A stretch of DNA of 64,000 nucleotides from an uncultured Gammaproteobacteria bacterium. Its GTDB lineage: Bacteria > Patescibacteriota > Microgenomatia > Levybacterales > UBA12049. The translations under genes were made by a program, and so were the position numbers. The DNA lies in NCBI GenBank assembly GCA_964653195.1, contig CAZZCX010000003.1, positions 11,688 to 75,687 of the forward strand, read 5' to 3'. The notes under the pieces were generated by a model. That model searched no databases, was not told the DNA's origin, and saw only the letters and a list, made by a program, of their open reading frames with translations. Shown in pieces: positions 45,939-64,000 of the stretch. How positions within the stretch are numbered: the first letter of the stretch is position 1; each line of letters starts with the position of its first letter.

Positions 45939-46036
45939 CTAATTAAAGAGTAGATGAGCATTTTATTAAAGTCAAGTAAACTCTAAGCATATTGTCATAC
46001 GTCAGTAAAATTGCTATTATAAGTTGGTTCAGAAAT

Positions 46037-46109: not shown

Positions 46110-46229
46110 CTTAAAATATAATTGATTTCTGTATATTATTTGTTTGAAAATTAAAAGAATCTGATTACTTTTTATCAAAGTGGAGAGATTTTTGCATCAA
46201 AAATATAGTATTCCTGCTAAATTTTTTTA

Positions 46230-46967
46230 CTACTGAGGTGTTGTACCGTATATAGTTATTAGAGTTCCTGGTGTTTCCTTAGTCGCATATGTGACATTTT
46301 TTGTACTGGGAGGATTTGCCCAATTATAAAGTTTCGCGACGTCTTCTTCTCGCATATTCACACATCCATGACTCATAGGATTTCCGAAATTATTATGCCA
46401 GTAAGCGCCATGTATCCCATATCCTTTACTTTTTGGTACTTTGTCATTATAGAAAAACATTGTGTAGGGTACATTGGGTAAGTTATAATAATTTGCGCCT
46501 GTTCCTCCCTGCATGCGGGTATAGCGGAGCTTTATCCAAATACGAAAATCACCAGTTGGAGTTGGCCACCAGGGTTTTCCTGAAGAAATCGTGAATTCAT
46601 GGATTAGTGTATTATTTTCGAAGGCGTACAATTTTTGTTTACTTAAGTCGACATAGATCCGCTTACTGTCTTCCGCCGTATCTCCAAGGACATTATTATT
46701 CACAGCAATTTTATATGGTTTGTCAGCTAACGCTGGACCAGCGATTTTTTTGCCTTCAAATTGCCCAGTGTTGTCATCTGAATAGTGGCCTGATAAATCA
46801 GAGATACAGCTTATGCTATTTGCACAATCGAGGTCATTTGTTGGTTTAGATGGGAGAAGTAGAATTGAGAAAATGCTTATGAAAAGTAGAGAAAATATAA
46901 GAATCAACTTTCTTTTATGATATAACAGTCCTTTCACCTTTTTATTTTTATTGTTTTTTCGAGGCAT
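46230..46967 (-). CDS. L,D-transpeptidase (YkuD domain), N-terminally anchored
   Basis: Catalytic motif SHGCVNM (His, Gly, Cys) near the C-terminus. Confidence 0.75.
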   Translation of the reverse strand: MPRKNNKNKKVKGLLYHKRKLILIFSLLFISIFSILLLPSKPTNDLDCANSISCISDLSGHYSDDNTGQFEGKKIAGPALADKPYKIAVNNNVLGDTAEDSKRIYVDLSKQKLYAFENNTLIHEFTISSGKPWWPTPTGDFRIWIKLRYTRMQGGTGANYYNLPNVPYTMFFYNDKVPKSKGYGIHGAYWHNNFGNPMSHGCVNMREEDVAKLYNWANPPSTKNVTYATKETPGTLITIYGTTPQ

Positions 46968-47067
46968 ACATATAGCGTAGGAAAAAAATAATTGTTTGTA
47001 AAGAAGGAAATTTATCTAATAAAATAAATCTATTAATTTAGAATAAAAATATAATTATGAGTTTGTG

Positions 47068-47139
47068 AGCGGTGGACCGGATTTGAACCGGCGACCTCGT
47101 CCTTGGCAAGGACGCATTCTACCACTGAACTACCACCGC
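47068..47139 (-). tRNA. tRNA-Gly (anticodon GCC)
   Basis: Reverse complement: acceptor GCGGUGG/CCACCGC, anticodon stem CGUCC/GGACG with loop UUGCCAA, and T-arm GCCGG-UUCAAAU-CCGGU. Confidence 0.75.
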
Positions 47140-47229: not shown

Positions 47230-48396
47230 ATGTTATCTTCTTATAATTATAAATTAATGCCTGAGAAAGAAAGCGAATCTACTTACTTATCTGCATTAGC
47301 TAAATTAGCATACCCAGTGAATAATATCCTTTTGTATTATGCAGGTCTTCCCTACTATTCTTATAATTTTTCAAGAGATAGTATTCTCTCGGCTATTCTA
47401 ATGCGTGACCCCTTAATGCTGCGTGATCAATTAGTTTTTTCTGCATTATTACAAGGCACAAGAAAAGATCCATTATCCGGTGAAGAGCCAGGAAAAATAT
47501 TTCACCAGATACCCAGTGTCCGTCAAAATAGATTATCAACAGAATATAACGCTTGTGATACAACCGCACTTTTTATTATTGGACATGAGGCATATCTAGA
47601 TATGACCAATGATTATCAATTTATAAAAAAACAAAGAGTGTATCTAGAGAAAGCAGTTGATTACATTTTAAAGCATCTTATGAATAATCTTTTTGTAGAA
47701 GATCCTAAGTTTTCAGATTCAAAACGATTTGCATTGAAAGTTACTTATTGGAAAGATTCTCAGGCACCAAACAGAAAGCATGGGCTACCAATTTATCCAG
47801 CAGTTTTTACTCTTGCTCATGTGCAGAATATGAAGGCTTTGAGAAGCGCTGCGAAATTGCTGGGTTTTAATGATTTGGAGACCAAAGCGTTAGAAATGAA
47901 AAGACATCTGACTATTCTTTTTGATGAAAAGCAAGGTATATTTGCTAGTGGCGTAGATCAACGAGGCTTTTTTCAAGGAACGAGCTCTGATAATCTTCAT
48001 ATGCTTTATTATCTTGATGAATCAGATATTACGAAAGAGAAAGTAAAAAGAATTTTGGAGAATTCTGTGAATTTAGAAACGCCATTAGGATATATGACCT
48101 TTAATACTGATAACGCTTCAACTGACCAGGATATCACCCATCATACCAATTATCACACTAATACAGTTTGGCCTTTCGAACAAGCATTTATACATCAGGC
48201 TGCTTTAAGATTCGGACTTGATACAGTTGCTAGTATTAGTGAAAGAATTTATCCCTATATTAAAGTTGATTTTCCAGAGCTTTTTCATTTAGAAAACGGA
48301 AGACATTATAAAAAAGGTTGTGATATACAGTTGTGGACTATTGCTGCAAGTATTTATTTTGCAAAATATTTTCAAAGCACAAATTCTTCAAAATGA
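47230..48396 (+). CDS. (alpha/alpha)6-barrel glycoside hydrolase, glycogen-debranching (amylo-alpha-1,6-glucosidase)-like
   Basis: Segments resemble the GDE_C/GH15-like toroid (NACDTTALFIIGHEAYL, TYWKDSQAPN, WPFEQAFIHQAALRFG). Confidence 0.45.
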   Translation: MLSSYNYKLMPEKESESTYLSALAKLAYPVNNILLYYAGLPYYSYNFSRDSILSAILMRDPLMLRDQLVFSALLQGTRKDPLSGEEPGKIFHQIPSVRQNRLSTEYNACDTTALFIIGHEAYLDMTNDYQFIKKQRVYLEKAVDYILKHLMNNLFVEDPKFSDSKRFALKVTYWKDSQAPNRKHGLPIYPAVFTLAHVQNMKALRSAAKLLGFNDLETKALEMKRHLTILFDEKQGIFASGVDQRGFFQGTSSDNLHMLYYLDESDITKEKVKRILENSVNLETPLGYMTFNTDNASTDQDITHHTNYHTNTVWPFEQAFIHQAALRFGLDTVASISERIYPYIKVDFPELFHLENGRHYKKGCDIQLWTIAASIYFAKYFQSTNSSK

Positions 48397-49694
48397 ATTT
48401 GGGATGGATGGACCCCGGAAGATTTTAATTCATTAGTTATGTTTTTTGCCATAGCTTTGGGTCCGCAAATATAAATATCAAATTCCATAAGATTACTTAC
48501 GTATTGTTTGATTAAATTTAGATCAATCCTGCCCTTTATTCCTTTGTACGTTTCCTCCCTGCTGATAACATAATAAATAGGAAATTTATATTTTTGTGAA
48601 AGGCTATCGAGTTCTTTTTCGAAAATAATATCAGATGAAGTTCTATTAGAATAAAAAAGTATTTGTTGTTTGTTGTTGCCAATACTTTCAATTATTGAGC
48701 GTATAGGAGTGATGCCAACTCCAGCTGCTATAAAAAGTATTTTATCTTTCTTCATGAATCTTTCCGTGAATGCACCATGTGGTCCATCGATAAGCAGTTT
48801 TGTGCCAGATTTAATTCTCATTAGTTTTTCTGTGAAATCTCCTTCTTTCTTTATTGTAATTCTGATAAATTCCCCATTTGGTATACTTGAAAACGAGAAA
48901 GGATGCGATTCCTTGCCAAGTTCTTTACTCAGAAAACGGACGAATAAAAATTGTCCTGGCTCAAAGTGAAAGCTATTCAAATCTATACCTTTTATAAAAA
49001 GAGAAATGGTATCATCCGTTTCTTTGCTAACTTTGTCTATATAAAAGCGATGTTTCTTAAATCTTAAAATTAATACTATAAAGCGTGTATAAATGGTAAT
49101 TGCGAAAACTATGAAATACATTAAATACCAATAATAAGAAAACCATTTGTTAACTAGAAAATCAGTTCCTACTGAAAATTGGTGGAAAAATGATAAAAGC
49201 ACAGCTATATAAACTGCTAAGTGGACGATATACCAGAATTCATAACGGAGTCTATTTCGCACGATATAAATCGATGAAAAGATGATTAGTAAAAAAGTTA
49301 TATAACCTATAAACGCAAGCCAGACATTTTCATATATAGTTATAAATTGAATGTATTGAGATATTGGATTTATTTTCCCTTGTATAGAATATCCAAGTGT
49401 AAGAAGCATTGGATGTGAGATTAAAAATACAGCAAGATACAAACCAATTTTTTTATGAATTTTATTCAATAATTCGTATCCGAATATTTTTTCAAGTGGC
49501 ATAATTCTTCCTCGAAGCACGAATTGAATTAAAATAAGATAAACAGTAATGAGGCCCATAAGTCGGCCTAAAGATATAAGTATTGATGCAGAAGACGTAA
49601 GATCTAATCCCGTTGTAGTTAGCCAAAAATATACAGTAATTATTAAAGGAGTCGCAAAAATGACATAAGTGATCCGTCTATTGATCATATTCAA
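48372..49694 (-). CDS. Ferric reductase / NADPH oxidase-like membrane flavoprotein (FRD transmembrane domain plus FAD plus NAD(P) domains)
   Basis: N-terminal polytopic region with His residues. FAD motif HPFSFSS (HPFT-like). NAD(P) motif AAGVGITPIRS. A C-terminal CGP. Confidence 0.7.
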   Translation of the reverse strand: MNMINRRITYVIFATPLIITVYFWLTTTGLDLTSSASILISLGRLMGLITVYLILIQFVLRGRIMPLEKIFGYELLNKIHKKIGLYLAVFLISHPMLLTLGYSIQGKINPISQYIQFITIYENVWLAFIGYITFLLIIFSSIYIVRNRLRYEFWYIVHLAVYIAVLLSFFHQFSVGTDFLVNKWFSYYWYLMYFIVFAITIYTRFIVLILRFKKHRFYIDKVSKETDDTISLFIKGIDLNSFHFEPGQFLFVRFLSKELGKESHPFSFSSIPNGEFIRITIKKEGDFTEKLMRIKSGTKLLIDGPHGAFTERFMKKDKILFIAAGVGITPIRSIIESIGNNKQQILFYSNRTSSDIIFEKELDSLSQKYKFPIYYVISREETYKGIKGRIDLNLIKQYVSNLMEFDIYICGPKAMAKNITNELKSSGVHPSQIHFEEFVL

Positions 49695-50815: not shown

Positions 50816-51455
50816 ATATATTTTACTATCATTTACAATTTTGATTTTACTATATCCAAACTATATCTGTCTAGTTTGGTTACTTTACATATTGGTAATT
50901 TATTCAGTTTGGGAGCTATACAAGTATATACCGATTTTTTTATCTGTAGTGGGAAAATATATCTATCTCGATGAGATTCAAATGTAAACTATAAAGATGA
51001 AAGATAAAAGTAGTTTTAACTATTTTTGCTTCTTTGGCTTTTTCTTCTCCTTCTTTCTTTTTTGATTATTTCTTTCGGCCATATATTCAGTATATAATTT
51101 CAAAACAAAATTGCAAGTACTATAACGATTTGATGCAGAATCTTGTCCCCGAATAAATAAAAGCTTATTATATTAGCTTCAATATCGTGCATGCGGTAGA
51201 ATTTGTCACAAATATCTTTTTAAGTGCCTAGGTTTTCAGTTCGCCTTATTTATATAGTTAAACAATGAGCGATCGTAGTGTGTCGAATTGCTGAGGCTAC
51301 CGGTCTGGACCCTTTCAGTCCTTATAACTCGCTCAGAAATTGTATCATCTCCAGGCTAAATGAGACAAATAAGACACCTAAAAAGGGGTGTCTCAAAAAA
51401 TCAGTCCGATTTATCCATTCAGTATCTGTTATACTGTTGGATAAGAGGTAATTTT

Positions 51456-51857
51456 ATGCTAAAAGGATTTAAGGATTTTATATTGAAGGGAAACGTTGTT
51501 GATCTTGCGGTAGCTGTCGTCATTGGTGTGGCTTTTGGTAATGTGGTGACAGCCATGGTCAAAGATTTAGTAACCCCATTAATTGGGGCTTTTGGCGGGA
51601 CACCTGATTTTTCTAATATATCTTTCACTATCAATAATAGTAAATTTATGGTTGGAGATTTTATTAACTCACTCATCTCCTTCCTAATGATTGCTGGGGT
51701 AATTTATTTTGCCGTGGTAATTCCGATGAATAAGCTGATGGAAAAGATGAAAAGCGGTAAAAGTGTCGATCCGACGGAAAAAGCTTGTCCCGAATGCCTA
51801 AGTCTCATACCCATTAAGGCTAAAAAATGTAAGTTCTGTGCTTCTGTTGTACGGTAA
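51456..51857 (+). CDS. mscL: Large-conductance mechanosensitive channel MscL with a C-terminal CxxC...CxxC extension
   Basis: MLKGFKDFILKGNVVDLAVAVVIGVAFG is canonical MscL. AAGAGG lies 8 nt upstream of this ATG. The track ORF start at 51360 is probably an upstream extension. Confidence 0.8.
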   Translation: MLKGFKDFILKGNVVDLAVAVVIGVAFGNVVTAMVKDLVTPLIGAFGGTPDFSNISFTINNSKFMVGDFINSLISFLMIAGVIYFAVVIPMNKLMEKMKSGKSVDPTEKACPECLSLIPIKAKKCKFCASVVR

Positions 51858-54045: not shown

Positions 54046-55389
54046 ATGAATAACAAGATCCAAATCCAGTATGTTCCGATCAATAGCTTAAAATTTGCCG
54101 AATACAACCCTCGCAAAATCAGTGAGATAGATCTGGATGGCTTAGTTGCTAGCCTCACGGAATTCGGTACAGTTGATCCATTACTGGTAAATAACGCCCC
54201 GGGAAGAGAAGGGACCGTTATAGGAGGCAACCAGCGTCTTACTGCTCTGAGGAAGATGGGACATACGGAAGTTCCCGTAGTCTTTTTGACTATTCCAGAT
54301 CTTGAACGGGAGAAAGAATTAAACGTGCGGTTGAATCGGAATCAGGGAGAATGGGACTTTGACCTGCTGGCGAAGTTCGATGAGTCTCTCCTGAAGAACA
54401 TTGGCTTCTCCAGCGAAGAACTGGATAATATTTTTGATATTGATCCCACTCCTGAAATATTTGACCTTGAAAAGGAATTAAAGAAGCTAAAAATTGATAG
54501 TATCCAGACACAAAAAGGAGATGTCTACAAGCTGGGTGAGTCTCGACTCATGTGCGGCGACTCCACGATTGAGGCAGATATGTTAAAGCTTATGAACGGA
54601 GAGAAAGCTTATGCCTGCATCACTGACCCACCCTATATTTTGGACTATCTAAACGGCAAACAACGACATGGGAATCCCACCGTAGGATTTGGAGCCAAAA
54701 AGAATCGCAGATACCTAGAAACCGATGTGCTTCCTCCTGACTTTACAGAAAAATGGATGGCGAATGTTAATAAAGTTCAGGAAGAACACTTCAGCATCAT
54801 CGTATATGAAAACTGGAAAAACATTCGGATTATCTGGGGAGAGATGGAAAAATACTGGAAGGTTAAGAATATGATTGTTTGGCATTTGCCCAATCGTAAT
54901 CAAGGGTATGCGGCCAGCCACAAGTTTTTCTCAAAGCACGATATTGCTATGGTTGGAGCCTCTGCAGGTGTTGATGTCGAGTTCAATGATGAACCTGAAG
55001 AAGATGGGTTGCAGAACGAATATGAAACTGCCCTGTACGCAATATCGGGAAACCCTCAGTGGGAGGGATACAAGAAAGGAAAAAAGATCCAACCCACAGA
55101 CTTCATCGACTACAAAGCATCTGATGAGAAAAGTTCTGGACAAGGGATCATCTTTGGCACTAAGCCAATCGAAATCCTGATTCCCTATATCAAGGTACTG
55201 ACCAAACGAAACGATATTGTACTGGAACCGTTTTCAGGAAGCGGAAGCACTCTTATCGCTTGTACCAAGATGAAAAGACGTTGCTATGGAATGGAAAAGT
55301 CACCAGTGTATACAGAAGTGATCAAAAAACGATGGGAAAATCTCACCGAGAGGAAGGCTGTAAAAATTGACCAAACCGAAAAACTATGA
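54046..55389 (+). CDS. ParB-like nuclease domain fused to an N6-adenine/N4-cytosine DNA methyltransferase (beta class)
   Basis: The N-terminal ParB/Srx fold (GGNQRLTAL). MTase motif IV ITDPPY precedes motif I FSGSGST, which is the beta-class order. This is a phage-type orphan MTase architecture. GC is elevated. Confidence 0.75.
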   Translation: MNNKIQIQYVPINSLKFAEYNPRKISEIDLDGLVASLTEFGTVDPLLVNNAPGREGTVIGGNQRLTALRKMGHTEVPVVFLTIPDLEREKELNVRLNRNQGEWDFDLLAKFDESLLKNIGFSSEELDNIFDIDPTPEIFDLEKELKKLKIDSIQTQKGDVYKLGESRLMCGDSTIEADMLKLMNGEKAYACITDPPYILDYLNGKQRHGNPTVGFGAKKNRRYLETDVLPPDFTEKWMANVNKVQEEHFSIIVYENWKNIRIIWGEMEKYWKVKNMIVWHLPNRNQGYAASHKFFSKHDIAMVGASAGVDVEFNDEPEEDGLQNEYETALYAISGNPQWEGYKKGKKIQPTDFIDYKASDEKSSGQGIIFGTKPIEILIPYIKVLTKRNDIVLEPFSGSGSTLIACTKMKRRCYGMEKSPVYTEVIKKRWENLTERKAVKIDQTEKL

Positions 55390-55805
55390 AAAGCAAAACG
55401 ATTGTAAAACGACAACAAAAAGATAAGGAGGCAGTGATAGAAAACCTTAAGCGGATGCCGATTATCGAGATTGCCTGCAATAAAAGTGGCGTATCTCGTG
55501 CAACCTATTATCGGTGGAAGGAACAAAATCCGGCTTTTTCCCAAGCGGTTGATAAAGCACAGGAGGAGGGTGAAGCATTAATTAGGGATGTGGCGGTCAG
55601 TAAAATCATCAAGGGAATCAATGATGACAATTTAACGGCAGCCATGTATTGGCTGAACCATCGAGATCCCCGGTTTAGCAACAAAGTTGAGATATCGACA
55701 ACCACAAAACCTCAGGAAGCGTTATCTAAAGAACAGGAAGAGGTGGTCAAGAAAGCACTGGCATTAACTGGTATTAGCGAGAGTGACCAGAAAAATAAAA
55801 GTTGA
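55386..55805 (+). CDS. Phage-type HTH protein, probable terminase small subunit
   Basis: HTH segment CNKSGVSRATYYRWKE. Its position immediately upstream of the terminase large subunit and its overlap with the flanking genes support the call. Confidence 0.45.
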   Translation: MKSKTIVKRQQKDKEAVIENLKRMPIIEIACNKSGVSRATYYRWKEQNPAFSQAVDKAQEEGEALIRDVAVSKIIKGINDDNLTAAMYWLNHRDPRFSNKVEISTTTKPQEALSKEQEEVVKKALALTGISESDQKNKS

Positions 55806-57013
55806 AAATAAATATGGCTATATTACCTAATCTTATAAAACTACTTATGAGTGATCGCCGGATTCGGATCGAAGCGACCCGCCGTGATCTCTCACTATTC
55901 TTCAGTTTTTACTTCACCAAATATATTAAATATGAAATTGCCCCATTTCAAAACGAGATATTAAGACTCCTTCAAGATGTGCAAAACAGACAAATTGTGA
56001 TAACAGCGTTCCGTAACTCTGCAAAGTCTACCTTTTGCAGTCTCGTACTTCCGATTTGGTCTGTGGTTGGGATACACAACAAGAAGAATATTTTACTGGT
56101 CAGCCAAACTGACCCGAAAGCGGAGCAACTGCTCATAGATATCCGCAGAATGCTGGTTTCCCAGAGTTTACTACTTGATGATCACGGCACTTTTTACAGT
56201 AGTAATGACGAATGGAACAAGCGGACTTTAGTGATACCAAAATACGGAGCAAGAATTACGGCAGTATCTATTGGCGAAAGTATTCGTGGAATGAGACATG
56301 AAGAGAGTCGTCCGGATCTAATTATTTACGACGATATTGAAGATGTTCAGTCGGCCAAAACCCAAGAAGGTCGAGATAAACTGTGGGAAATCGTCACCCG
56401 TGAATTTATGCCACTCGGGACCAAAGACACACGACACATTTTTATAGGAAATTTAGTCCATCCGGATTCTACTATGGTTCGTTTGCGAGAACTAATCTAA
56501 AGCGGAAGAATGTCAGGGATCTATCGAGAATATCCACTTATTAAAGATGATGTAATTTTATGGCCGGGACAATTTCCTGATATGGATGCTATTGAGGAAT
56601 TCAAAAAAAGCTTACCAAGCGAGATTGATTTTTTACGGGAATACATGCTTCAAATTATTCCGGAAGGCAGTCGGCTTGTGTTTGCGAAAGATATCCAAAG
56701 ATATGAAGAAAATGATCTGCGTTCTCGATCCGACTTTCAAATGTATCTAATTTTGATTGATCCAGCGGTATCGGGAGAGAGAACATCAAAACATGATAAA
56801 ACCAGCATTATTGTTGTGAGAGTTTACGGATCAGGTGAAACAATGAAAATGTATATCAGCCCCAATCCAATTAATGACTGGCTTGAGTGGCCGCAAATCA
56901 TTGAAAAGGTTCAGAACATAGTTGCTTCATTTGGAGAATCCGCTACATTGAAATTGCAATACAATGCAAGTTTCTATAGCAATAAAAACATTCTAGTCGA
57001 TCTTGGAATGTAA
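55802..57013 (+). pseudogene. Terminase large subunit remnant. The ATPase domain is intact to 56497, an in-frame TAA lies at 56498-56500, the frame continues to 57013, and the nuclease domain is truncated.
   Basis: A Walker A-like AFRNSAKST and a Walker B LIIYDDIED. After the stop, the same frame encodes LILIDPAVSGERTSKHDKTSIIVV (start of the RNaseH-like nuclease domain) and then ends early. Confidence 0.6.
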
Positions 57014-57031
57014 TAACAGATCTGTTATTTC

Positions 57032-57057
57032 AAAAACCCCTTTTAAAAGGGGTTTTT
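57032..57057. terminator. Perfectly palindromic hairpin flanked by A-run and T-run (bidirectional terminator)
   Basis: aaaaaccccttttaaaaggggttttt. Confidence 0.6.
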
Positions 57058-57093
57058 GATTGGTTTTGATACCCTATCCTGTATAATACACTT

Positions 57094-57768
57094 ATGAGAA
57101 TTTTGGTAGTTGAAGATGAGTCAAAGCTTTCTAACAACATTAAGCAAGGATTAACAGAAAGTGGATTTGCTGTTGATCAGGCATTTGATGGTGAAGAGGG
57201 GCAATATTTGGCAGAATCAGAAGAGTATGATGCAATCGTGCTTGATGTCATGCTACCAAAGATTGACGGTGTGACCTTATGCAAAGAGCTACGTAGAAAA
57301 CAGAAAAAAACTCCGATACTTATGCTCACTGCAAAGTCCAGGTTAGATGACAAGATAGAAGGACTTGATGCAGGAGCGGATGATTATCTAACAAAACCGT
57401 TTGAATTTGCTGAACTGAAATCCCGTATCAATGCACTTTTGCGCAGAAGTCATAACCAAGCAGAGACAATCATTGCCATAGGAGATCTTGTGGTTGATCC
57501 AAAATCACATAAGGTGGAACGAAATAGTAAAACCATTTCTTTAACTGCAAAAGAATTTGCCATTTTAGAATTTCTAGCACGACATAAAGATGAGGTCGTA
57601 ACACGAACACAAATACTTGAACATACATGGGATTATAATTTCGACAGTATGTCCAACATAGTTGATGTTTTTGTAGCAACCTTAAGAAAAAAAATTGATG
57701 GAGAGTCCAAAAAGAAATTATTGCATACAGTTAGAGGTGTAGGCTTTAAATTAAGCGAACAGGGATAA
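57094..57768 (+). CDS. OmpR-family two-component response regulator
   Basis: A receiver domain (VVEDE, D at LDVMLP, the K of LTAK) and a winged-helix output (VRGVGFKL). Confidence 0.9.
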   Translation: MRILVVEDESKLSNNIKQGLTESGFAVDQAFDGEEGQYLAESEEYDAIVLDVMLPKIDGVTLCKELRRKQKKTPILMLTAKSRLDDKIEGLDAGADDYLTKPFEFAELKSRINALLRRSHNQAETIIAIGDLVVDPKSHKVERNSKTISLTAKEFAILEFLARHKDEVVTRTQILEHTWDYNFDSMSNIVDVFVATLRKKIDGESKKKLLHTVRGVGFKLSEQG

Positions 57769-57769: not shown

Positions 57770-58771
57770 ATGAATACTTTACTTAAGACTCTTCGTGCCC
57801 GCCTAATTCTTGGATATGTTGGTAGTATCGCTTTTTTTACCCTCTTTTTCTATATAGTAGTACATAATTTTGCGCTACCACATAGTGATCATATTTATAT
57901 AGTTCTATTTGTGATTTTTACTGTTTTAGGAATATTTCTTATTTATCGCATAACGAAATCAATAACCTATGTATCCTCCAGAATACGTCATATATCACGA
58001 AAAAACCTTGATGAGAGAATCACAGATATTAATTCAGAGGATGAAATTGGTGAACTTGCAGCATCATTCAATAGCTTACTTGATAACATGAATGATGCAT
58101 TTAAAAGAGAACAACAATTTATTGGAGATGTTGCACACGAATTAAAAACCCCGCTTGCTACACAAAGAAGTTCTCTTGAGGTAACTCTCTCCAAAGACAG
58201 GACGAAAGAAGATTATAAGAAGGCGTTGGAATCAGCACTCGAAGAAAATAACCATATATCATCAACACTGAAAAATGTACTTGATCTTGCCTGGTCTGAA
58301 ACACATGAAGAAAAGAAAAACAGTGCAGTTTTTGATCTATCGGAATTAATGGAAGAATTACGTGATATTACAGAAAAGTTGGCTCAATCCAAAAAAATAA
58401 CAGTTGAAGCGTCAATTCACGAGGATATACATGTAGAAGGATTTAAAGATAAGCTAGCAAGAGCCTTACTTAATATAATTGATAATGCAGTGAAATATAC
58501 GCATAAAGGAAAGATATCAATAAAACTCAGAAAGTCACACAACAGGGCATTTTTGACAATTTCTGATACAGGTCAAGGAATAGAATCTGAAGAATTAACC
58601 AAAATTTTTACTAGATTTTATAGAGGTTCAAAAACAGATAAAATTTTAGGTTCAGGATTAGGTTTGGCAATAACAAAATCTGTAATTACACTTCACAATG
58701 GACATATTAATGTTGAAAGTAAATTGAATATAGGTACAACGTTTACTATTATCCTTCCTCTGGCTCAATAG
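57770..58771 (+). CDS. Sensor histidine kinase (two TM segments, HAMP, HisKA, HATPase_c)
   Basis: The H-box VAHELKTPL, the N-box IIDNAVKYT and the G-boxes DTGQGI and GSGLGL. Confidence 0.9.
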   Translation: MNTLLKTLRARLILGYVGSIAFFTLFFYIVVHNFALPHSDHIYIVLFVIFTVLGIFLIYRITKSITYVSSRIRHISRKNLDERITDINSEDEIGELAASFNSLLDNMNDAFKREQQFIGDVAHELKTPLATQRSSLEVTLSKDRTKEDYKKALESALEENNHISSTLKNVLDLAWSETHEEKKNSAVFDLSELMEELRDITEKLAQSKKITVEASIHEDIHVEGFKDKLARALLNIIDNAVKYTHKGKISIKLRKSHNRAFLTISDTGQGIESEELTKIFTRFYRGSKTDKILGSGLGLAITKSVITLHNGHINVESKLNIGTTFTIILPLAQ

Positions 58772-58826
58772 CTCTTCATAATTTCTTAATATTTCATTTA
58801 GTATCCTCTGCATAGGTATAAAAACT

Positions 58827-59354
58827 ATGCATCATAATAAACAAAACTACAGCTCGGGGATTAGCGAAAAAAAGATTGGTATTCTTTTGATTCTTACAAC
58901 AGTAGCGATTTTATTTGGTGGCATTCTTTTTCTTAACAATACATCTGCATCATCCCAGGTAGTCGCATCAGCTAACGCCGAAGCTGTTGTAGAGAGTGAT
59001 ACCTACGACTGGGGGAATATTCCGATCAACGGTGGAAATGTTACCAAAAAATTTAGTATCAGAAATACTGGTTCTGATCCATTGCAACTTACCAATATTA
59101 GAACATCATGTCACTGCACAACAGCCAGTGTCACAATTTACGGCAATGAAAGTCCATCATTTGGAATGAGTGGAACTTCTCAATGGGTTGGAGAAGTGAA
59201 GCCAGGACAAGAAGCAACATTAAATGTTGTCTTTGATCCTCTATTTCATGGTCCGCAGGGAACTGGTCCAGTAAACAGATATATCTCAGTCGAAACAAAT
59301 GACAAATCAAATAGTAAATTAACATTTTCATTAACAGGAGTCGTTATTAAATAA
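58827..59354 (+). CDS. DUF1573-domain protein, membrane-anchored
   Basis: YDWGNIPINGGNVTKKFSIRNTGSDPLQLTNIRTSCHCT matches the DUF1573 pattern (YDFG...NtG...L.I..v.tSCGCT). Confidence 0.65.
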   Translation: MHHNKQNYSSGISEKKIGILLILTTVAILFGGILFLNNTSASSQVVASANAEAVVESDTYDWGNIPINGGNVTKKFSIRNTGSDPLQLTNIRTSCHCTTASVTIYGNESPSFGMSGTSQWVGEVKPGQEATLNVVFDPLFHGPQGTGPVNRYISVETNDKSNSKLTFSLTGVVIK

Positions 59355-59355: not shown

Positions 59356-60198
59356 ATGGGAGGAATGGAAGGGGTATTATTACAAACATCACTTATAGCA
59401 GCGTTCGTTGCAGGTATTGTTGCACTCTTTGCGCCATGCTGTATTTCATTTTTGCTTCCAGCATATCTAGGTAATGTCTTCAAGGAGAAAGAAAAAGTTG
59501 TCCTCATGACTCTTATATTTGGAGCTGGCATTTTTACAGTTATGATGCCTGCAGTGTTAGGAGTAGCAGCATTATCACGATTTTTGTTTGACTATCATGA
59601 TGGGATTTATTATCTAGGAGGTGTTGTCATGCTTTTATCCGCAGCAATAACTTTTCTTGGTATAAAATTCCCAATGCCACAATTACCAGGGAGAGATACT
59701 ACTAAAACAGATCCATTGTCAGTATTTACCCTTGGTATATTTTCAGGAATTACTAGTGCATGCTGCGCTCCTGTTTTAATTGGTATATTAACCCTTACCT
59801 TCTTATCTCCTAACTTTTTTGGGGCAATGGCTATAGGTGGAATGTATGTATTAGGAATGGTGATGCCGCTTCTTTTCATTGCGGTCTTTTTATCAGGAAA
59901 GATGACAAGGTTTATGTTTTTACGAAAACCTGTTACAAGTTTTAACTTCTTAGGTAAAGAAAGAACAGTAATTATGAGTAATCTGATTGCAAGTATCATC
60001 TTTTTCCTGACAGGGATATTTATCATTTATTTGAAATCAATCGGAAGACTTGGCATGGAAGATACAGAAGGATTCACGAAGATGATTACTGATGCTAGTA
60101 GCTATGTCAATCAATTTGTCGGTGGAAGCATACTGCTCAATATCATTTTTGTCGTCCTGATCATATATGGACTATATAAGATTGCAAAGCGAGCATAA
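59356..60198 (+). CDS. CcdA/DsbD-family thiol-disulfide transporter-like membrane protein
   Basis: A polytopic protein with Cys pairs inside TM helices (LFAPCCISF, ITSACCAPVL). It is adjacent to DUF1573, a recurrent pairing. Confidence 0.55.
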   Translation: MGGMEGVLLQTSLIAAFVAGIVALFAPCCISFLLPAYLGNVFKEKEKVVLMTLIFGAGIFTVMMPAVLGVAALSRFLFDYHDGIYYLGGVVMLLSAAITFLGIKFPMPQLPGRDTTKTDPLSVFTLGIFSGITSACCAPVLIGILTLTFLSPNFFGAMAIGGMYVLGMVMPLLFIAVFLSGKMTRFMFLRKPVTSFNFLGKERTVIMSNLIASIIFFLTGIFIIYLKSIGRLGMEDTEGFTKMITDASSYVNQFVGGSILLNIIFVVLIIYGLYKIAKRA

Positions 60199-60242
60199 AA
60201 ATCTTAATGATTTCTTAATAATTTATTTAGTAACCTAAGATT

Positions 60243-61604
60243 ATGAATAAAACAACAATAGATATTACCGGAATGCACTGCAAGTCATGTGAAATCCTCA
60301 TTGGAGATGAATTATTAAAAATCCCAAATGTTAAGAATGCAAAAGTATCCCAAAAAAAAGGGTGTGCTGAAATAATCCATGAAGGTAGATTAAATCATAA
60401 TGATGTGGCTTATGCAGTGAAAGAGGCAGGATATTCACTCGGAAAAGAAAAACGACATTTCTTTTCAAGAAATCCTGAAGATTACACAGAACTAGGAATT
60501 GCTGTTACCGCACTTTTTATTATTTGGGCTGTAGCCTACTTAAATGGATGGTTTAATGTTGATGCCTCTGGTCTTAATAATTATGCAAGCCTTCCTATTG
60601 TTTTTCTTATAGGTATTACAGCAGGAATCTCAACATGTATGGCACTCATTGGAGGATTAGTATTGGGTGCGGCCGCTAGATTTTCAGAAAAGCATCCAGC
60701 TGCTACTGCATTACAGAAATTTAAACCTCATCTCTATTTTAATCTTGGTCGAATACTTTCATTTTTCTTCTTTGGTGCAGTAATCGGGTATCTCGGATCA
60801 TTCTTCAGACTAGCACCTTCAACACTTGGCTTTCTTATTATTCTTGTAGGTATCGTTATGCTTTTCCTGGGATTACAACTTGTCGACATATTCCCTAAAT
60901 TAAGCGGTATGACTTTTACTTTACCAAAACAATTAAGTAATCTACTTGGTATTAAAAGTCGTAACGACAAAGAATATAGCCATAAGAATTCGATGATTCT
61001 TGGTGCTATGACATTTTTCCTCCCTTGTGGTTTTACTCAGGCAATGCAGCTTTTCGCGATGAGTACAGGCAGTCCAGTTACCGGAGCATTAACAATGGGA
61101 GTATTCGCTATCGGAACAGCTCCAGGGCTTCTCTCAATTGGAGGACTGACATCAGTTGTTAAGGGAGCATTTGCAAGAGTATTCTTTCGATTCGCAGGAG
61201 CAGTCGTTATCGCTCTTGCTTTCTTTAATATAACAAGCGGATATACATTAACCGGAATAAAAGGTATTTCCCTGCCTAAATTCGATAATGTCCTTTCTTC
61301 ATCAACAAGCAATGCGGCTCCAAAAGGAGAAGTTCAAGTTATAAAAGCGACATATTCCGCATCAAACGGTTTTCAACCAAAAGAACTAAGCGTTAAAGCA
61401 GGTGTTCCCGCACGACTTGAAGTAGAGGCGTTTGATAATGGTGCTGGATGCATGGGAAGTATAGCCTTACCTGGTTTATCACAAAACATGGAGATCTTTA
61501 AGAAAGGTCAAAAAGCAGTGTTTGATTTCACAGCAGAAAGTACCGGATCATACACGATAGCTTGCGCGATGGGTATTCCTCACGGAACCCTCAAAGCTAT
61601 TTAA
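60243..61604 (+). CDS. Tripartite protein: N-terminal HMA metal-binding domain, a polytopic DsbD_2/TauE-like membrane region, and a C-terminal cupredoxin-like domain
   Basis: GMHCKSCE (the GMxCxxC HMA motif). The central TM region carries FFLPCGFTQAM. The C-terminal roughly 110 aa has His/Cys/His/Met-type spacing (GAGCMGS ... YTIACAMGIPHG). Confidence 0.55.
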   Translation: MNKTTIDITGMHCKSCEILIGDELLKIPNVKNAKVSQKKGCAEIIHEGRLNHNDVAYAVKEAGYSLGKEKRHFFSRNPEDYTELGIAVTALFIIWAVAYLNGWFNVDASGLNNYASLPIVFLIGITAGISTCMALIGGLVLGAAARFSEKHPAATALQKFKPHLYFNLGRILSFFFFGAVIGYLGSFFRLAPSTLGFLIILVGIVMLFLGLQLVDIFPKLSGMTFTLPKQLSNLLGIKSRNDKEYSHKNSMILGAMTFFLPCGFTQAMQLFAMSTGSPVTGALTMGVFAIGTAPGLLSIGGLTSVVKGAFARVFFRFAGAVVIALAFFNITSGYTLTGIKGISLPKFDNVLSSSTSNAAPKGEVQVIKATYSASNGFQPKELSVKAGVPARLEVEAFDNGAGCMGSIALPGLSQNMEIFKKGQKAVFDFTAESTGSYTIACAMGIPHGTLKAI

Positions 61605-61645
61605 TCTTAATAATTCCTTAATAATTTATTTAGTAAGCTAAACAT

Positions 61646-61855
61646 ATGAAAACAACTACATTAAAACTTTCAGGACTTACATGCACAGCATGTACAAAGT
61701 TAATTACAAAACGAATTAAAACGATTGTTGATGTTGCAGATGTAACTGTCGAACTTCCTGGTACAGCGACTATAAAAGCTGAAAGAGAAGTTACAGAAGA
61801 AGAAGTTAAAAAAGTATTAGAAGGGACACATTATAGTGTTGTTGGAAAAAAATAA
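61646..61855 (+). CDS. copZ: Copper chaperone CopZ (single HMA domain)
   Basis: A 69-aa protein with [13 protein letters not shown]. Confidence 0.85.
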
Positions 61856-61856: not shown

Positions 61857-64000
61857 ATGAATCAACCGTTATCATTTAATGTAAAAGGAATGACCTGCAC
61901 ATCATGCGAAATGCTTATCAAAGATGAGCTTGGTGATGTGAAAGGTGTTAGTGATGTAGCAATTAATCATAAAACAGGTAAAGGATCACTAACTTATGAT
62001 GCCGCTTTAGTTACCGGCGACATGATACGAAAAGCGGTAAAAAACGCAGGATATGATGCAGTTTTTGCGGAAGAACCAAAGACAAATGGTTTGGCAAATC
62101 AGAATGGAATAAGTAAAAATACACTTCTCTTTAAGCAAGCAGTCAAAGAGACTCCTCTTAAAGTAACGATTCAAACAAAAATAGAGGCGAAAGGAAAAGT
62201 ATTGCAGGATGAGAATAATAATTTAGTTTTTGAAGGTGAATTTGATAGTAATAGTGCTACAAAAGTTACATTACCAAAAGGAATTGAAGAAAAGTCAAAA
62301 GAACATTTAGAAAATGTTTTTCGTTCAATTAACTTCTCAACCTTGCTTGATAGAACCTCTCAAAAAAATCCACAGTCTTTAACTAATGGGAAGACTAATT
62401 CTATTAGCGTACAGGAACAGACTAAGGATGAGGAGTATGAAGAAGCTGATGAAAATAAAAGAGTACAGCTTATCCTCTCCGGTATGCACTGCACATCCTG
62501 CTCACATATTATTGAGCGAGGTCTAATGAAAGTTGAAGGTGTAAAAGAGGCACATGTTAATTTTTCTGCTGAAAAGGCGACAGTTACATTTGATGAAAGT
62601 CTGGCAGATGAGGAGGACTTAATTAAAGCTGTTAATAAGTCAGGCTACAAAGCTGTAATACTTGATGCTGCAGATACAGAGTATGAAGCGAAAAAAAGAA
62701 AGGAGGAAATCAAACTACAAACATTTAAGTTTGTCGTAAGTTTCCTGTTAAGTGCGCCAATGCTTTACTTCATGTTGTTTGATTTCTTCACTTGGATTCC
62801 AGGTAGAGCTTTCTTATTCCCATATATCGGTTTAGTCTCATTCCTGCTTGCTGCACCAGTTCAGTTTATTATAGGCGCATCATTTTATAAAGGAATGTGG
62901 TCAGCTCTCCGAATGAAGACTTTTAATATGGATAGTCTTATTGCCATTGGTACAACAGTTGCTTTCTTCTATAGCGTAGTCAGTTATTTTATCTATGTAA
63001 ATACAACAGGATCATTACTTGGCCTCAACGGAGAAAAGATTCCGGATCTATACTTTGAAACAGCAGCATTTCTTATTACCTTTGTAATTCTCGGCAAACT
63101 ACTTGAAGCGAAGGCAAAAGGACGTACCTCAGATGCAATTAAAAAGCTCATGGGACTTCAAGCAAAAACAGCACGTGTTATCCGAAATGGAGTAGCACAA
63201 GATATTTCTATAGATGAAGTAGTTGCAGGTGATGTTATCCTTGTTCGACCTGGGGAGAAAGTACCTGTCGATGGTGTTATTGTAAAAGGCTCATCCTCGG
63301 TTGATGAATCTATGATCACCGGAGAAAGTTTACCTGTAGAGAAAAATATTGAAGATACAGTAATAGGTGGAACAATTAATAAAACTGGCAGCTTTGAATT
63401 TAAAGCAACTAAAGTAGGTGCTGAGACAACTCTCTCACAAATTATTCGCCTTGTAGAAGATGCACAAGGTTCTAAAGCGCCAATTCAAGCATTTGCAGAT
63501 AGAATCTCAGCGTGGTTTGTTCCTGCAGTTATCTTGATAGCAATCCTTACGTTCGTCGTCTGGTACTTCTTCCTTGGTGCGACACTGGCGTTTGCGCTCA
63601 TGACGTTTACAGCTGTTATCGTTATCGCTTGCCCATGCGCATTAGGACTTGCAACACCTACAGCTATCATGGTGGGTACAGGAAAAGGTGCAGAGCATGG
63701 AATTTTAGTTAAAGGTGGAGAACCACTTGAAGCAGCAAATAAGATCAATACAATCGTTTTTGACAAGACAGGAACACTTACCAAAGGTAAGCCAGAAGTT
63801 ACCGATATAATTCCGCTTTCAGGAATGGATGAAGATGATTTTCTTGCTATCGCTGCAAGTCTTGAGAAGCAGTCAGAACATCCACTTGCAGAAGCAATCT
63901 ACTCTTATGCAAATGATGAAGATATAGAACTGGCTGAAGGACAAAACTTCTCCGCTATTCCAGGTCATGGGGTACAAGGCGATGTTGACGGAACAACGTA
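61857..64000 (+). CDS. copA: Copper-translocating P1B-type ATPase CopA, 3' partial. The frame is open to the window end.
   Basis: Two N-terminal HMA domains ([16 protein letters not shown]), the TGES actuator motif (ITGESLPV), the CPC motif ([12 protein letters not shown]) and the phosphorylation site DKTGTLT. No stop is found before position 64000. Confidence 0.9.

What the first reader, a model, noticed from the sequence alone, without database searches (positions are those of the whole stretch)
60243..61604. Unusual tripartite fusion of an HMA domain, a DsbD_2/TauE-like membrane core and a cupredoxin-like domain
A single 453-aa ORF combines three parts: an N-terminal GMxCxxC metallochaperone domain, a polytopic region with a membrane-embedded Cys, and a C-terminal soluble domain. 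The C-terminal domain has ligand spacing reminiscent of type-1 copper sites (C-x-M-G-x-P-H). This arrangement could shuttle Cu(I) across the membrane to an extracytoplasmic cupredoxin. I do not recognise it as a described architecture.
Basis: inference. Interest (0 to 1): 0.55.

Follow-up and report, generated by a model that had tools for sequence, protein, structure and literature searches.

The report
Copper-relay membrane protein of CPR bacteria
The gene is real and encodes a common but unstudied membrane protein of copper-resistance operons in ultra-small (CPR) bacteria, with a copper-binding domain on each side of the membrane joined by a core holding two buried cysteines; it most likely passes copper ions across the membrane, and its database label "sulfite exporter" is wrong.

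Summary
The 453-aa ORF at 60243-61604 (+) is real. Pfam confirms three domains: HMA, DsbD_2 and Cupredoxin_1. The fusion is not unusual. Thousands of relatives share it: at least 592 loci in species-representative genomes, nearly all Patescibacteria/CPR, and one cultured Clostridium. Actinobacteria and Deinococcus have it with HMA as a separate adjacent gene. NCBI calls all of these "sulfite exporter TauE/SafE family", which Pfam's TauE model does not support.

The gene sits directly upstream of copZ and a Cu(I)-type copA in 70 of 81 loci. It often follows csoR or a two-component system, as in this window.

The predicted topology has seven TM helices, with HMA in the cytoplasm and the cupredoxin outside. 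The C-terminal domain is not a blue-copper site, because His447 is Arg in 83% of relatives. It is homologous to the pneumococcal Cu(I) chaperone CupA and keeps CupA's Cys pair and first Met.

Two invariant cysteines, C132 and C262, sit at breaks in TM helices. These are the positions of CcdA's redox cysteines.

Best reading (about 0.45, inferred): a three-station thiolate relay moves Cu(I) from HMA through the membrane cysteines to the CupA-like domain. Main rival: a CcdA-like reductant shuttle. I found no experimental study of this family.

The parts
60243..61604 (+). Whole gene: 453-aa HMA / 7-TM DsbD_2 core / CupA-like cupredoxin protein
   Evidence: ORF; Pfam; full-length homologs.
60255..60434 (+). 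Cytoplasmic HMA domain (aa 5-64). Its G-M-H-C13-x-x-C16 motif has codons 60279-60281 and 60288-60290.
   Evidence: Pfam HMA, E 3.6e-8. H12, C13 and C16 are invariant. [quoted passage not shown] Foldseek matches CopZ-type structures with TMt 0.8-0.9.
60474..60542 (+). TM1 (aa 78-100): an extra adaptor helix that links the cytoplasmic HMA to a core whose own N-terminus faces outward
   Evidence: AF2 helix. This helix is absent from the actinobacterial and Deinococcus homologs, which also lack a fused HMA. Positive-inside counts support the orientation.
60591..61253 (+). Six-TM DsbD_2 core (aa 117-337). It holds the intramembrane cysteines C132 (60636-60638) and C262 (61026-61028).
   Evidence: Pfam DsbD_2, E 1.5e-30. 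Both Cys are invariant in CPR and in Actinobacteria and Deinococcus. Both lie at breaks in TM helices in two AF2 models. Both align with the CcdA cysteines in hhalign.
61263..61328 (+). Flexible Ser/Thr/Ala-rich linker (aa 341-362), predicted to lie outside the cell
   Evidence: pLDDT below 50 over residues 341-362.
61329..61601 (+). Extracytoplasmic CupA-like cupredoxin domain (aa 363-453). Proposed Cu(I) ligands are C403 (61449-61451), M404, C441 (61563-61565) and M443 (61569-61571). H447 (61581-61583) is not conserved.
   Evidence: Pfam Cupredoxin_1. phmmer matches CupA 2mry/4f2e at E 1.7e-5. Foldseek matches 4f2e at E 1.1e-5 with TMt 0.81. Residue conservation.
60203..60224 (+). 22-bp direct-repeat box CTTAATGATTTCTTAATAATTT, 18 nt upstream of the start codon. 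It is probably the binding site of the OmpR-type response regulator.
   Evidence: Three copies in the window against 0.18 expected by chance. A related box occurs in L007.
61606..61627 (+). Second copy of the box, upstream of copZ
58774..58795 (+). Third, degenerate copy of the box (3 mismatches), upstream of the DUF1573 gene
57094..57768 (+). OmpR-family response regulator of the island
   Evidence: Pfam Response_reg and Trans_reg_C. A two-component system lies next to the gene in about 12 of 81 loci.
57770..58771 (+). HAMP/HisKA/HATPase sensor histidine kinase
58827..59354 (+). Membrane-anchored DUF1573 Ig-like protein with an invariant CxC motif (C95, C97)
   Evidence: Pfam and NCBIfam; conservation in 16 of 16 sequences.
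59356..60198 (+). Divergent CcdA-family membrane protein with two invariant CC pairs. It is a separate reductant-transfer module in the same island.
   Evidence: No Pfam or NCBIfam hit. hhalign against annotated CcdA proteins gives probability 99.8%, E 4e-28. The CC pairs are conserved in 13 of 13 sequences.
61646..61855 (+). CopZ-type HMA metallochaperone (69 aa)
   Evidence: copZ lies downstream of the target gene in 34 of 81 loci.
61857..64000 (+). CopA P1B-type ATPase, cut off by the window end at aa 714. It has two HMA domains, a CPC motif and DKTGT.
   Evidence: Translation. The full-length ortholog in L005 has CPC, YN and MxxSS, the P1B-1 Cu(I) signature. copA follows the target gene in 70 of 81 loci.

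Best explanation
The gene encodes a copper-handling inner-membrane protein of the cop (copper-resistance) island of a Levybacteria-type CPR bacterium.

Shown:
- It has a cytoplasmic CopZ-like HMA domain with a CxxC motif.
- An adaptor helix joins the HMA to a six-helix core of the DsbD/CcdA superfamily.
- The core has one invariant cysteine at a helix break in its first TM helix (C132) and one in its fourth (C262).
- A flexible linker leads to an outward-facing cupredoxin domain. This domain is homologous to the pneumococcal Cu(I) chaperone CupA and keeps its bis-thiolate site (C403, C441) and one or two Met.

Inferred: the three cysteine pairs form a ligand-exchange relay for Cu(I). The ion would pass from the HMA (or from CopZ via the HMA) to the intramembrane pair and then to the external CupA-like site. 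The scaffold that CcdA and DsbD use to pass a disulfide would here be reused to pass a thiophilic metal ion.

The direction is most likely outward, meaning detoxification alongside CopA. The gene is co-regulated with copZ and copA by CsoR or by a CopRS-like two-component system, and most LysE-superfamily metal carriers are exporters. The external domain would hold Cu(I) at the cell surface or hand it on. Ag(I) and Hg(II) would fit the same chemistry.
For: Domains and motifs.

Topology (N-in, C-out): seven helices in the AF2 model. Mean K+R is 13.2 in the inside loops and 1.3 in the outside loops. Homologs without a fused HMA also lack TM1.

CupA homology with the Cu(I) ligands aligned. The ligand roles of C74/C111 and C74/M113/M115 are from PMC5646241 and PMC7558416. 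Of the cupredoxin domains in the family, 97% keep CxM and 69% keep the full CupA CxMxM.

Membrane cysteines: they are invariant across phyla and lie at helix breaks.

Genetic linkage: copZ and copA follow directly on the same strand in 70 of 81 loci. csoR lies upstream in 24 and a two-component system in about 12. The CopA is of the Cu(I) type, with CPC, YN and MxxSS. The same regulator box precedes this gene and copZ.

Fusion versus adjacency: the HMA is fused in CPR and in Acetoanaerobium. In Tsukamurella, Streptomyces and Deinococcus it is a separate roughly 72-aa gene immediately downstream, and a P1B ATPase is adjacent in the first two.

A separate CcdA-like/DUF1573 module already covers reductant transfer in this island.

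HMA+DsbD-type proteins (COG2836) were computationally placed in the CsoR regulon of gut Firmicutes (PMC4938975). The DsbD family belongs to the LysE superfamily of mostly metal and amino-acid exporters (PMC4608589).
Against: - No transport or metal-binding experiment exists for any member of the family, as far as I could find.
- The two intramembrane cysteines sit exactly where CcdA has its redox-active cysteines. An electron-transfer role therefore fits the core equally well.
- CopA already exports Cu(I), so the need for a second exporter is unclear, as is its energy source.
- DsbA-like thioredoxin genes lie directly upstream in 13 of 81 loci.
- merA or merB lie nearby in two of the split-gene loci. 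This could point to inward, Mer-like transport.
- The model coordinates could not be inspected, so the C132-C262 distance is unknown.
Confidence: 0.45

Rival explanations
1. CcdA/DsbD/ScsB-like reductant shuttle. The C132/C262 pair carries reducing equivalents, not metal, from the cytoplasm to the outside. This keeps the cysteine pair of the external CupA-like domain reduced. That domain can then keep binding Cu(I) released by CopA, or reduce and sequester Cu(II) at the cell surface.
For: - The core belongs to Pfam DsbD_2.
- hhalign aligns 202 columns with CcdA, and both cysteines fall on CcdA's catalytic cysteines.
- CcdA (5vkv) is the nearest solved fold for the core-only model, with probability 0.72 and TMt 0.44.
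- DsbA-like genes lie directly upstream in 13 of 81 loci.
- DsbD-family members are linked to copper tolerance (PMC4608589).
- The cysteines of CupA can reduce Cu(II), and the source that re-reduces them is unknown (PMC5646241).
Against: - It does not explain the obligatory HMA partner, which is either fused or encoded adjacently. HMA is a metal-binding fold, whereas the known cytoplasmic donor of CcdA and DsbD is thioredoxin.
- No thioredoxin-fold domain is fused to the protein.
- This island already has a dedicated CcdA-like gene paired with a CxC protein.
- Similarity to CcdA is weak: hhalign probability 12.6%, Foldseek E 0.53, and no Pfam DsbD hit.
Confidence: 0.25
2. Inward thiol relay with the logic of MerP/MerT. 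The outer cupredoxin captures Cu(I), Ag(I) or Hg(II) and passes it through the membrane cysteines to the cytoplasmic HMA. The HMA then hands it to CopZ/CopA or MerA for controlled disposal, or supplies copper for cell needs.
For: - The arrangement of outer metal site, intramembrane Cys pair and cytoplasmic HMA mirrors MerP, MerT and the N-terminal domain of MerA (established knowledge of mer systems).
- merA lies two genes downstream in the Tsukamurella plasmid, and merB and a MerR-family regulator lie nearby in Deinococcus.
- NCBIfam MerTP and MerP models hit the HMA part weakly.
Against: - In CPR the gene is co-regulated with a copper exporter by copper-stress regulators. Importing Cu during Cu stress would be harmful or futile.
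- The membrane part shows no homology to MerT. The NCBIfam MerTP hit covers only the HMA, at 28.7 bits against a cut-off of 180.
- The association that is common across the loci examined is with a P1B ATPase, not with MerA.
Confidence: 0.12
3. Sulfite/organosulfonate exporter of the TauE/SafE family, as NCBI names it.
For: Only the names that NCBI and JGI give to homologs.
Against: - Pfam TauE does not hit, even at E<=10.
- The HMA and CupA-like domains are unexplained by this role.
- The copZ/copA/csoR context is unexplained, and no sulfur-metabolism genes lie nearby.
Confidence: 0.02
4. Blue-copper (type-1) electron-transfer domain fed with copper by the membrane part.
For: The domain has a cupredoxin fold, and the string C-x-M-G-x-P-H is present in this protein.
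Against: A type-1 site needs two His, one Cys and one Met. This domain has a single His, which is Arg in 83% of relatives and Lys in 4%. The conserved ligand set, two Cys plus Met, is that of the CupA Cu(I) cluster.
Confidence: 0.02

Closest known systems
CupA, the membrane-anchored Cu(I) chaperone of Streptococcus pneumoniae (PDB 4F2E/2MRY), and the cupredoxin-type N-terminal domain of its CopA (4F2F)
   Same: This is the best sequence and fold match of the C-terminal domain. The bridging Cys (C74 = C403), the second Cys (C111 = C441) and the first Met (M113 = M443) are conserved. Both domains are tethered to the membrane, and both genes sit in a cop operon with CopA.
   Different: CupA faces the cytoplasm on a single N-terminal helix and feeds CopA from inside (PMC7558416). 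Here the domain follows a seventh TM helix and is predicted to lie outside the cell. The second Met (M115) is Ile in this protein, with an invariant Met next to the first Cys instead. In addition, the CopA here has ordinary HMA domains, not cupredoxin domains.
CcdA / DsbD-beta / ScsB transmembrane thiol-disulfide electron carriers (TC 5.A.1; CcdA structure 5VKV)
   Same: Both belong to the same Pfam clan and the LysE superfamily. Both have a six-TM core with N- and C-termini outside. Both have one essential Cys in the first TM helix and one in the fourth, at helix breaks. Both follow the same logic of a cascade of cysteine pairs running inside, membrane, outside. ScsB and DsbD are linked to copper tolerance.
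   Different: The partners here are metal-binding folds (HMA inside, cupredoxin outside) rather than thioredoxin-like or Ig-like redox domains. The PCxxP motifs are only partly kept (STCM and LPCG). Similarity is below significance.
COG2836-type HMA + DsbD-type + DUF2318 membrane proteins of gut Firmicutes, inferred members of the CsoR regulon (Hobbs et al. 2016, PMC4938975)
   Same: Both have an N-terminal HMA fused to the same kind of membrane core, and both are linked to copper regulation. That study is purely computational.
   Different: The extracytoplasmic domain there is DUF2318, not a cupredoxin. Orthology with the CPR family was not tested here.
MerT/MerP and MerTP fusion mercury transporters
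   Same: Both move a thiophilic metal across the membrane by ligand exchange between cysteine pairs, with an HMA domain as one station.
   Different: The membrane parts are not homologous. In Mer the HMA (MerP) lies outside and transport is inward. Here the HMA is inside, and the copper-stress regulation argues for export.
[quoted passage not shown]
   Same: The N-terminal domain has the same fold and the GMxCxxC Cu(I) site. The motif MHCKSC is the same as in domain 3 of human ATP7B.
   Different: Here the domain is fused to a secondary-carrier-type core rather than to an ATPase.

Membership tests
HMA (PF00403, CopZ/Atx1-like) | Profile score above Pfam's gathering cut-off | tested here: met
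   34.1 bits against a cut-off of 24.8, residues 5-64.
HMA (PF00403, CopZ/Atx1-like) | GMxCxxC metal-binding loop | tested here: met
   G10-M11-H12-C13-K-S-C16 is present. H12, C13 and C16 are invariant in 121 sequences.
HMA (PF00403, CopZ/Atx1-like) | [quoted passage not shown] | tested here: met
   AF2 secondary structure shows E2-9, H14-24, E30-36, E41-46 and H52-61. Foldseek matches CopZ structures with TMt 0.8-0.9.
DsbD_2 (PF13386) | Profile score above Pfam's gathering cut-off over the whole model | tested here: met
   107 bits against a cut-off of 24.9, covering model positions 2-197 of 199.
CcdA/DsbD electron carriers (TC 5.A.1, PF02683) | Six-TM core with both ends outside the cell | tested here: met
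   AF2 helices and the positive-inside counts support this. Homologs without HMA start directly at the first core helix. This rests on prediction only.
CcdA/DsbD electron carriers (TC 5.A.1, PF02683) | One conserved cysteine in core TM1 and one in core TM4 | tested here: met
   C132 and C262 are invariant. They align with the CcdA cysteines and lie at helix breaks.
CcdA/DsbD electron carriers (TC 5.A.1, PF02683) | Significant sequence or structure similarity to characterised members | tested here: inconclusive
   There is no PF02683 hit at E<=10. hhalign gives probability 12.6%, E 2e-3. Foldseek against 5vkv gives E 0.53, probability 0.72 and TMt 0.44. A PDB profile search found nothing.
CcdA/DsbD electron carriers (TC 5.A.1, PF02683) | Thioredoxin-dependent thiol-disulfide exchange with a thioredoxin-fold acceptor | not testable with these tools
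   This needs in vivo redox trapping. No thioredoxin-fold domain is fused to the protein. DsbA-like neighbours occur in 13 of 81 loci.
TauE/SafE sulfite exporters (PF01925) | Match to the family profile | tested here: not met
   At E<=10 the membrane part hits DsbD_2 and no related transporter family; the only other row is a sub-threshold DUF3566 match at E 1.4. The NCBI name is not supported.
CupA-like Cu(I) cupredoxin (within PF13473 Cupredoxin_1) | Profile score above cut-off and a cupredoxin fold closest to CupA | tested here: met
   Pfam gives 31 bits against a cut-off of 27. phmmer matches 2mry/4f2e at E 1.7e-5. Foldseek matches 4f2e at E 1.1e-5 with TMt 0.81.
CupA-like Cu(I) cupredoxin (within PF13473 Cupredoxin_1) | S1 bis-thiolate site (CupA C74 and C111) | tested here: met
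   C403 and C441 align to C74 and C111. C403 is invariant, and C441 is present in 120 of 121 sequences.
CupA-like Cu(I) cupredoxin (within PF13473 Cupredoxin_1) | S2 site with two Met (CxMxM) | tested here: not met
   This protein has C-A-M-G-I, so the second Met is Ile. An invariant M404 lies next to C403. In the wider family, 106 of 154 cupredoxin domains have the full CxMxM.
CupA-like Cu(I) cupredoxin (within PF13473 Cupredoxin_1) | Cytoplasm-facing domain on an N-terminal anchor that delivers Cu(I) to a cupredoxin-type CopA domain | tested here: not met
   The domain is predicted to be extracytoplasmic, after the seventh TM helix. The neighbouring CopA has HMA-type domains.
Type-1 blue copper proteins (plastocyanin/azurin type) | Ligand set of His, Cys, His and Met | tested here: not met
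   The domain has a single His (H447), which is Arg in 100 and Lys in 5 of 121 relatives.
MerT/MerTP mercury transporters | Match to the family model over the membrane part | tested here: not met
   The NF033556 hit covers only the HMA, at 28.7 bits against a cut-off of 180.

The most novel reading that the evidence does not exclude
The DsbD/CcdA scaffold, known only as a carrier of reducing equivalents, has been turned into a cysteine-relay Cu(I) (and perhaps Ag(I)/Hg(II)) transporter. It would take the ion from a cytoplasmic HMA domain and deliver it to an external CupA-like domain. This would be a second, ATP-independent copper efflux route. It would be standard equipment of CPR bacteria and would also be present in Clostridia, Actinobacteria and Deinococcus under the wrong name 'sulfite exporter'.
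Probability: 0.35. Interest if true: 0.7.

Novelty: new variant of a known kind. Interest (0 to 1): 0.45.

Why it matters
- Copper efflux across the cytoplasmic membrane is attributed almost entirely to P1B ATPases. A widespread cysteine-relay carrier built on the CcdA/DsbD fold would add a new mechanism. It would also show how a redox relay can evolve into a metal relay.
- The family is retained in the very small genomes of hundreds of CPR species, which suggests it matters for their survival.
- It is systematically misannotated as a sulfite exporter, which misleads metabolic reconstructions of these organisms.
- Cultured carriers make the hypothesis directly testable. Acetoanaerobium noterae has the full fusion. 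Streptomyces, Tsukamurella and Deinococcus have the split form.

Tried and rejected
- Internal 3+3 TM repeat: hhalign of residues 112-222 against 243-340 gave no signal, so the pseudo-symmetry of C132 and C262 rests only on the CcdA alignment.
- Profile search of the membrane core against PDB sequences: no hit at E<=10.
- Foldseek with the full model returned only the soluble domains. A core-only model gave no significant hit; CcdA ranked second by E-value and had the highest probability and TM-score.
I replaced it with home-made domain HMMs.
They covered DsbD_2, PF13386, COG2836, TauE with copper, and CPR with copper. They found no functional study. The only link was the computational CsoR-regulon paper PMC4938975.
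- Frameshift or two-gene artefact: rejected because the full-length architecture is conserved.
- Sulfite exporter and blue-copper readings: rejected.
- Model coordinates are not exposed, so the S-S distance between C132 and C262 and any docking of the domains could not be measured.
Full report
**1. The observation**

An ATG-to-stop ORF of 453 aa occupies 60243-61604 on the + strand. Pfam finds three domains, all above their gathering cut-offs:
- HMA at residues 5-64, E 3.6e-8;
- DsbD_2 at residues 120-326, E 1.5e-30;
- Cupredoxin_1 at residues 360-450, E 2.7e-7.

The cysteines are C13 and C16 (HMA loop GMHCKSC), C41, C132, C262, C403 and C441. So the description is correct, with two amendments. 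There are two intramembrane cysteines, not one. The 'TauE-like' label has no support: at E<=10 the membrane part matches DsbD_2 and no related transporter family, the only other row being a sub-threshold DUF3566 match at E 1.4.

**2. Is the fusion real and is it unusual?**

It is real and it is common.
- A search of 5.8 billion proteins gave 3439 hits at E<=1e-5 among 8000 scored candidates. The best 120 all cover the whole query, and 118 of them carry all three precomputed Pfam domains.
- A word-index-free search of 1.84 billion 50%-identity representatives found 776 clusters at E<=1e-30. Nearly all of the top 150 align over residues 1-450, down to about 30% identity.
- I built domain HMMs and applied them to those representatives. 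Of 149 sequences, 126 are HMA-core-cupredoxin. Of these, 106 have one cupredoxin, 16 have two, and 4 have two HMA domains. The other 23 lack one or both terminal domains, and several of them are clearly fragments.
The 80 loci listed come almost entirely from Patescibacteria/CPR MAGs: Levy-, Roizman-, Gottesman-, Amesbacteria, WWE3, Saccharibacteria, Gracilibacteria, Moran-, Magasanik- and Berkelbacteria, and Parcubacteria. A few records carry other names, such as uncultured Gammaproteobacteria, Pseudomonadales, Bdellovibrionales or Udaeobacter, which I did not check.
- The nearest genome is a Candidatus Levyibacteriota MAG (L005, 98% identity) with the same gene order as the window.

A frameshift artefact is therefore excluded.

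Close relatives in Microgenomates are mostly about 600 aa. They carry two tandem cupredoxin domains separated by a Cys/Gly-rich linker, SCGxxGGCGCG. The window protein is the one-domain form, which is the commoner form across the diversity-normalised set.

Outside CPR, the full fusion occurs in the cultured Clostridium relative Acetoanaerobium noterae (490 aa), with copA 59 bp downstream. In Tsukamurella, Streptomyces and Deinococcus plasmids the core and cupredoxin form one gene, and a separate roughly 72-aa HMA gene follows immediately. A P1B ATPase lies next to it in Tsukamurella and Streptomyces. In the annotated plasmid records I inspected, the gene is called 'sulfite exporter TauE/SafE family protein'.

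**3. Anatomy and topology**

The AF2 model built from 121 sequences has pLDDT 74.6 and pTM 0.63. It shows:
- an HMA fold;
- seven TM helices at 78-100, 117-150, 156-185, 192-214, 247-275, 278-305 and 309-337;
- a disordered linker at 341-362;
- a beta domain at 365-452.

Across the 121 sequences, the loops predicted to be cytoplasmic hold 13.2 Lys+Arg on average and those predicted to be outside hold 1.3. This gives HMA inside and cupredoxin outside. The actinobacterial and Deinococcus homologs that lack the fused HMA also lack TM1 and begin at the first core helix. The six-helix core therefore has both ends outside, as reported for CcdA (my own knowledge). TM1 acts as an adaptor that lets a cytoplasmic HMA be attached.

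In both the full model and a core-only model (pLDDT 80.3, pTM 0.73), C132 and C262 lie exactly at breaks in the first and fourth core helices. Such breaks are typical of substrate sites in carriers.

**4. The C-terminal domain is CupA-like, not blue-copper-like**

The best PDB sequence match is the S. pneumoniae Cu(I) chaperone CupA (2mry/4f2e, E 1.7e-5). The best structural matches are CupA (E 1.1e-5, TMt 0.81), the cupredoxin-type domain of pneumococcal CopA (4f2f), FtrB, and the B. anthracis Cupredoxin_1 protein.

In the alignment, C403 corresponds to C74, C441 to C111, M443 to M113 and I445 to M115. [quoted passage not shown] C403 and M404 are invariant, and C441 and M443 are present in 120 of 121 sequences. 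H447 is Arg in 100 and Lys in 5 of 121, so a type-1 site with two His is excluded. In the wider family, 149 of 154 cupredoxin domains have CxM and 106 have the full CupA motif CxMxM. The window's CAMGI is a minority variant.

One important difference from CupA is orientation. CupA faces the cytoplasm, whereas this domain is predicted to face outward.

**5. The membrane core**

Pfam places it in DsbD_2. Profile-profile comparison with annotated CcdA proteins is weak (probability 12.6%, E 2e-3). However, it spans 202 columns and places C132 and C262 on the two catalytic cysteines of CcdA. For the core-only model no solved structure matches significantly. CcdA (5vkv) ranks second by E-value and has the highest probability (0.72) and TM-scores of the list (0.39 and 0.44). 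A PDB sequence-profile search found nothing.

The core is thus a distant DsbD/CcdA-superfamily member that retains the two key cysteines. That superfamily lies within the LysE superfamily, whose other families are mostly exporters of metals and amino acids (PMC4608589).

**6. Genomic context**

In the window the gene order on the + strand is:
- OmpR-type response regulator (57094-57768);
- histidine kinase (57770-58771);
- membrane-anchored DUF1573 protein with CxC (58827-59354);
- a 280-aa protein with two CC pairs (59356-60198);
- the target gene;
- copZ (61646-61855);
- copA, which runs off the window end and has two HMA domains, CPC and DKTGT.

The full-length CopA ortholog in L005 has CPC, YN and MxxSS, the Cu(I)-type P1B-1 signature.

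Across 81 non-redundant loci, a P1B ATPase follows on the same strand, usually after a copZ, in 70. Most exceptions are truncated contigs. csoR lies just upstream in 24, a two-component system in about 12, and a DsbA-like thioredoxin in 13.

A 22-bp direct-repeat box, CTTAATnATTnCTTAATAATTT, with the 11-bp periodicity typical of OmpR/PhoB-type sites (my own knowledge), lies just upstream of the DUF1573 gene, the target and copZ. There are 3 copies against 0.18 expected by chance. A similar box precedes the regulator and the target in another genome.

The only literature link I found is a computational one. HMA+DsbD-type membrane proteins (COG2836) were inferred to belong to the CsoR regulon of gut Firmicutes (PMC4938975). 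Ten completed searches found no experimental work on the family.

**7. Mechanism**

What is shown:
- There are three cysteine pairs, in the cytoplasm (C13/C16), in mid-membrane (C132/C262) and outside (C403/C441).
- All three are essentially invariant.
- The two soluble pairs lie in folds known to bind Cu(I).
- The gene is embedded in a copper-stress operon.

What is inferred: Cu(I) moves by ligand exchange along these stations, most likely outward. The same scaffold passes a disulfide in CcdA and DsbD.

Four points favour a metal over electrons as the thing carried:
- The cytoplasmic partner is always an HMA domain, either fused or encoded next door. This is a Rosetta-stone argument for physical interaction. 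The donor of CcdA and DsbD is thioredoxin.
- The outer partner is homologous to a Cu(I) chaperone.
- Met residues flank both the membrane and the outer cysteines (STCM, GCMGS, CAMG).
- This island already has a separate CcdA-family gene. It scores hhalign probability 99.8% against annotated CcdAs, although Pfam and NCBIfam do not recognise it. It is translationally coupled to a CxC protein, so reductant export is already provided for.

I give this reading about 0.45.

The main rival (0.25) is that the core does carry electrons. It would keep the outer CupA-like cysteines reduced so that they can bind, or reduce, copper at the surface. This matches the core's ancestry, the DsbA-like neighbours, and the open question of how the cysteines of CupA are re-reduced (PMC5646241). 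It leaves the HMA unexplained.

An inward, Mer-like relay (0.12) is suggested by merA and merB near two of the split-gene loci. It fits poorly with copper-stress regulation.

The sulfite-exporter and blue-copper readings are essentially excluded.

**8. Novelty and verdict**

The window gene is an ordinary member of a very large protein family that is already in the databases, so the architecture itself is not a discovery. What appears not to be described is what the family does. It combines three known modules in a way not documented in the literature I could search: a CopZ-like HMA, a CcdA-like two-cysteine core, and an outward-facing CupA-like domain. I therefore rate it as a new variant of known kinds, of moderate interest (0.45). 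The hypothesis is clear and cheap to test in cultured carriers.

Noticed in passing
window 59356-60198 (+), with 58827-59354 (+): A 280-aa membrane protein has two invariant CC pairs (C28C29 and C136C137, in 13 of 13 orthologs). Pfam and NCBIfam do not recognise it, but hhalign shows it is clearly CcdA-family (probability 99.8%). It is translationally coupled (stop at 59354, start at 59356) to a membrane-anchored DUF1573 Ig-like protein with an invariant CxC motif. The pair recurs near the target gene in 5-12 of the loci. An ortholog in Streptomyces pFRL6 sits next to peroxiredoxin and glutaredoxin genes. It may be an unrecognised CcdA subtype with a DUF1573 acceptor.
   Followed up: partly
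window 58774-58795, 60203-60224, 61606-61627: The 22-bp direct-repeat box CTTAATnATTnCTTAATAATTT occurs 3 times against 0.18 expected by chance. The roughly 45-nt stretches before the target and copZ are almost identical. The box ends only about 18 nt before each ATG and there is no obvious Shine-Dalgarno sequence. This suggests regulator-dependent promoters that produce very short-leader or leaderless mRNAs.
   Followed up: partly
window 54046-57013 (+), ending at terminator 57030-57059: This is a prophage remnant directly upstream of the metal island. It comprises a ParB-N6/N4 DNA methyltransferase, a small terminase, and a large terminase split into two ORFs and truncated (PHROG 38 positions 254-462 and 478-578 of 760). 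It is closed by a bidirectional hairpin terminator.
   Followed up: partly
window 48372-49691 (-): A NOX/FRE-type membrane ferric-reductase-like protein (Ferric_reduct, FAD_binding_8 and NAD_binding_1) lies about 10 kb from the copper island in this CPR genome. It could be a metal (Fe or Cu) reductase.
   Followed up: no
L005 6579-10232 (ortholog of the window's truncated copA at 61857-64000): This CopA is 1218 aa long. After the last TM helix it has a roughly 250-aa C-terminal extension containing an internal duplication (…GDTIANFFG… and …GDTISPFFG…). The function of the extension is unknown. Many CPR CopA proteins next to the target gene are 1000-1240 aa long.
   Followed up: no
homologs P0016, P0027, P0061, P0093 and others (not in the window): The two-cupredoxin forms carry a Cys/Gly-rich linker (SCGxxGGCGCG) between the domains. 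A few proteins of 713-719 aa have four cupredoxin domains plus a Filamin-type Pfam hit. These features suggest extra external metal-binding capacity.
   Followed up: partly
window 42916-47139: A cluster of six tRNA genes (Leu-tag, Leu-cag, Leu-gag, Val-tac, Phe-gaa and Gly-gcc) lies here. MscL is encoded at 51360-51857.
   Followed up: no
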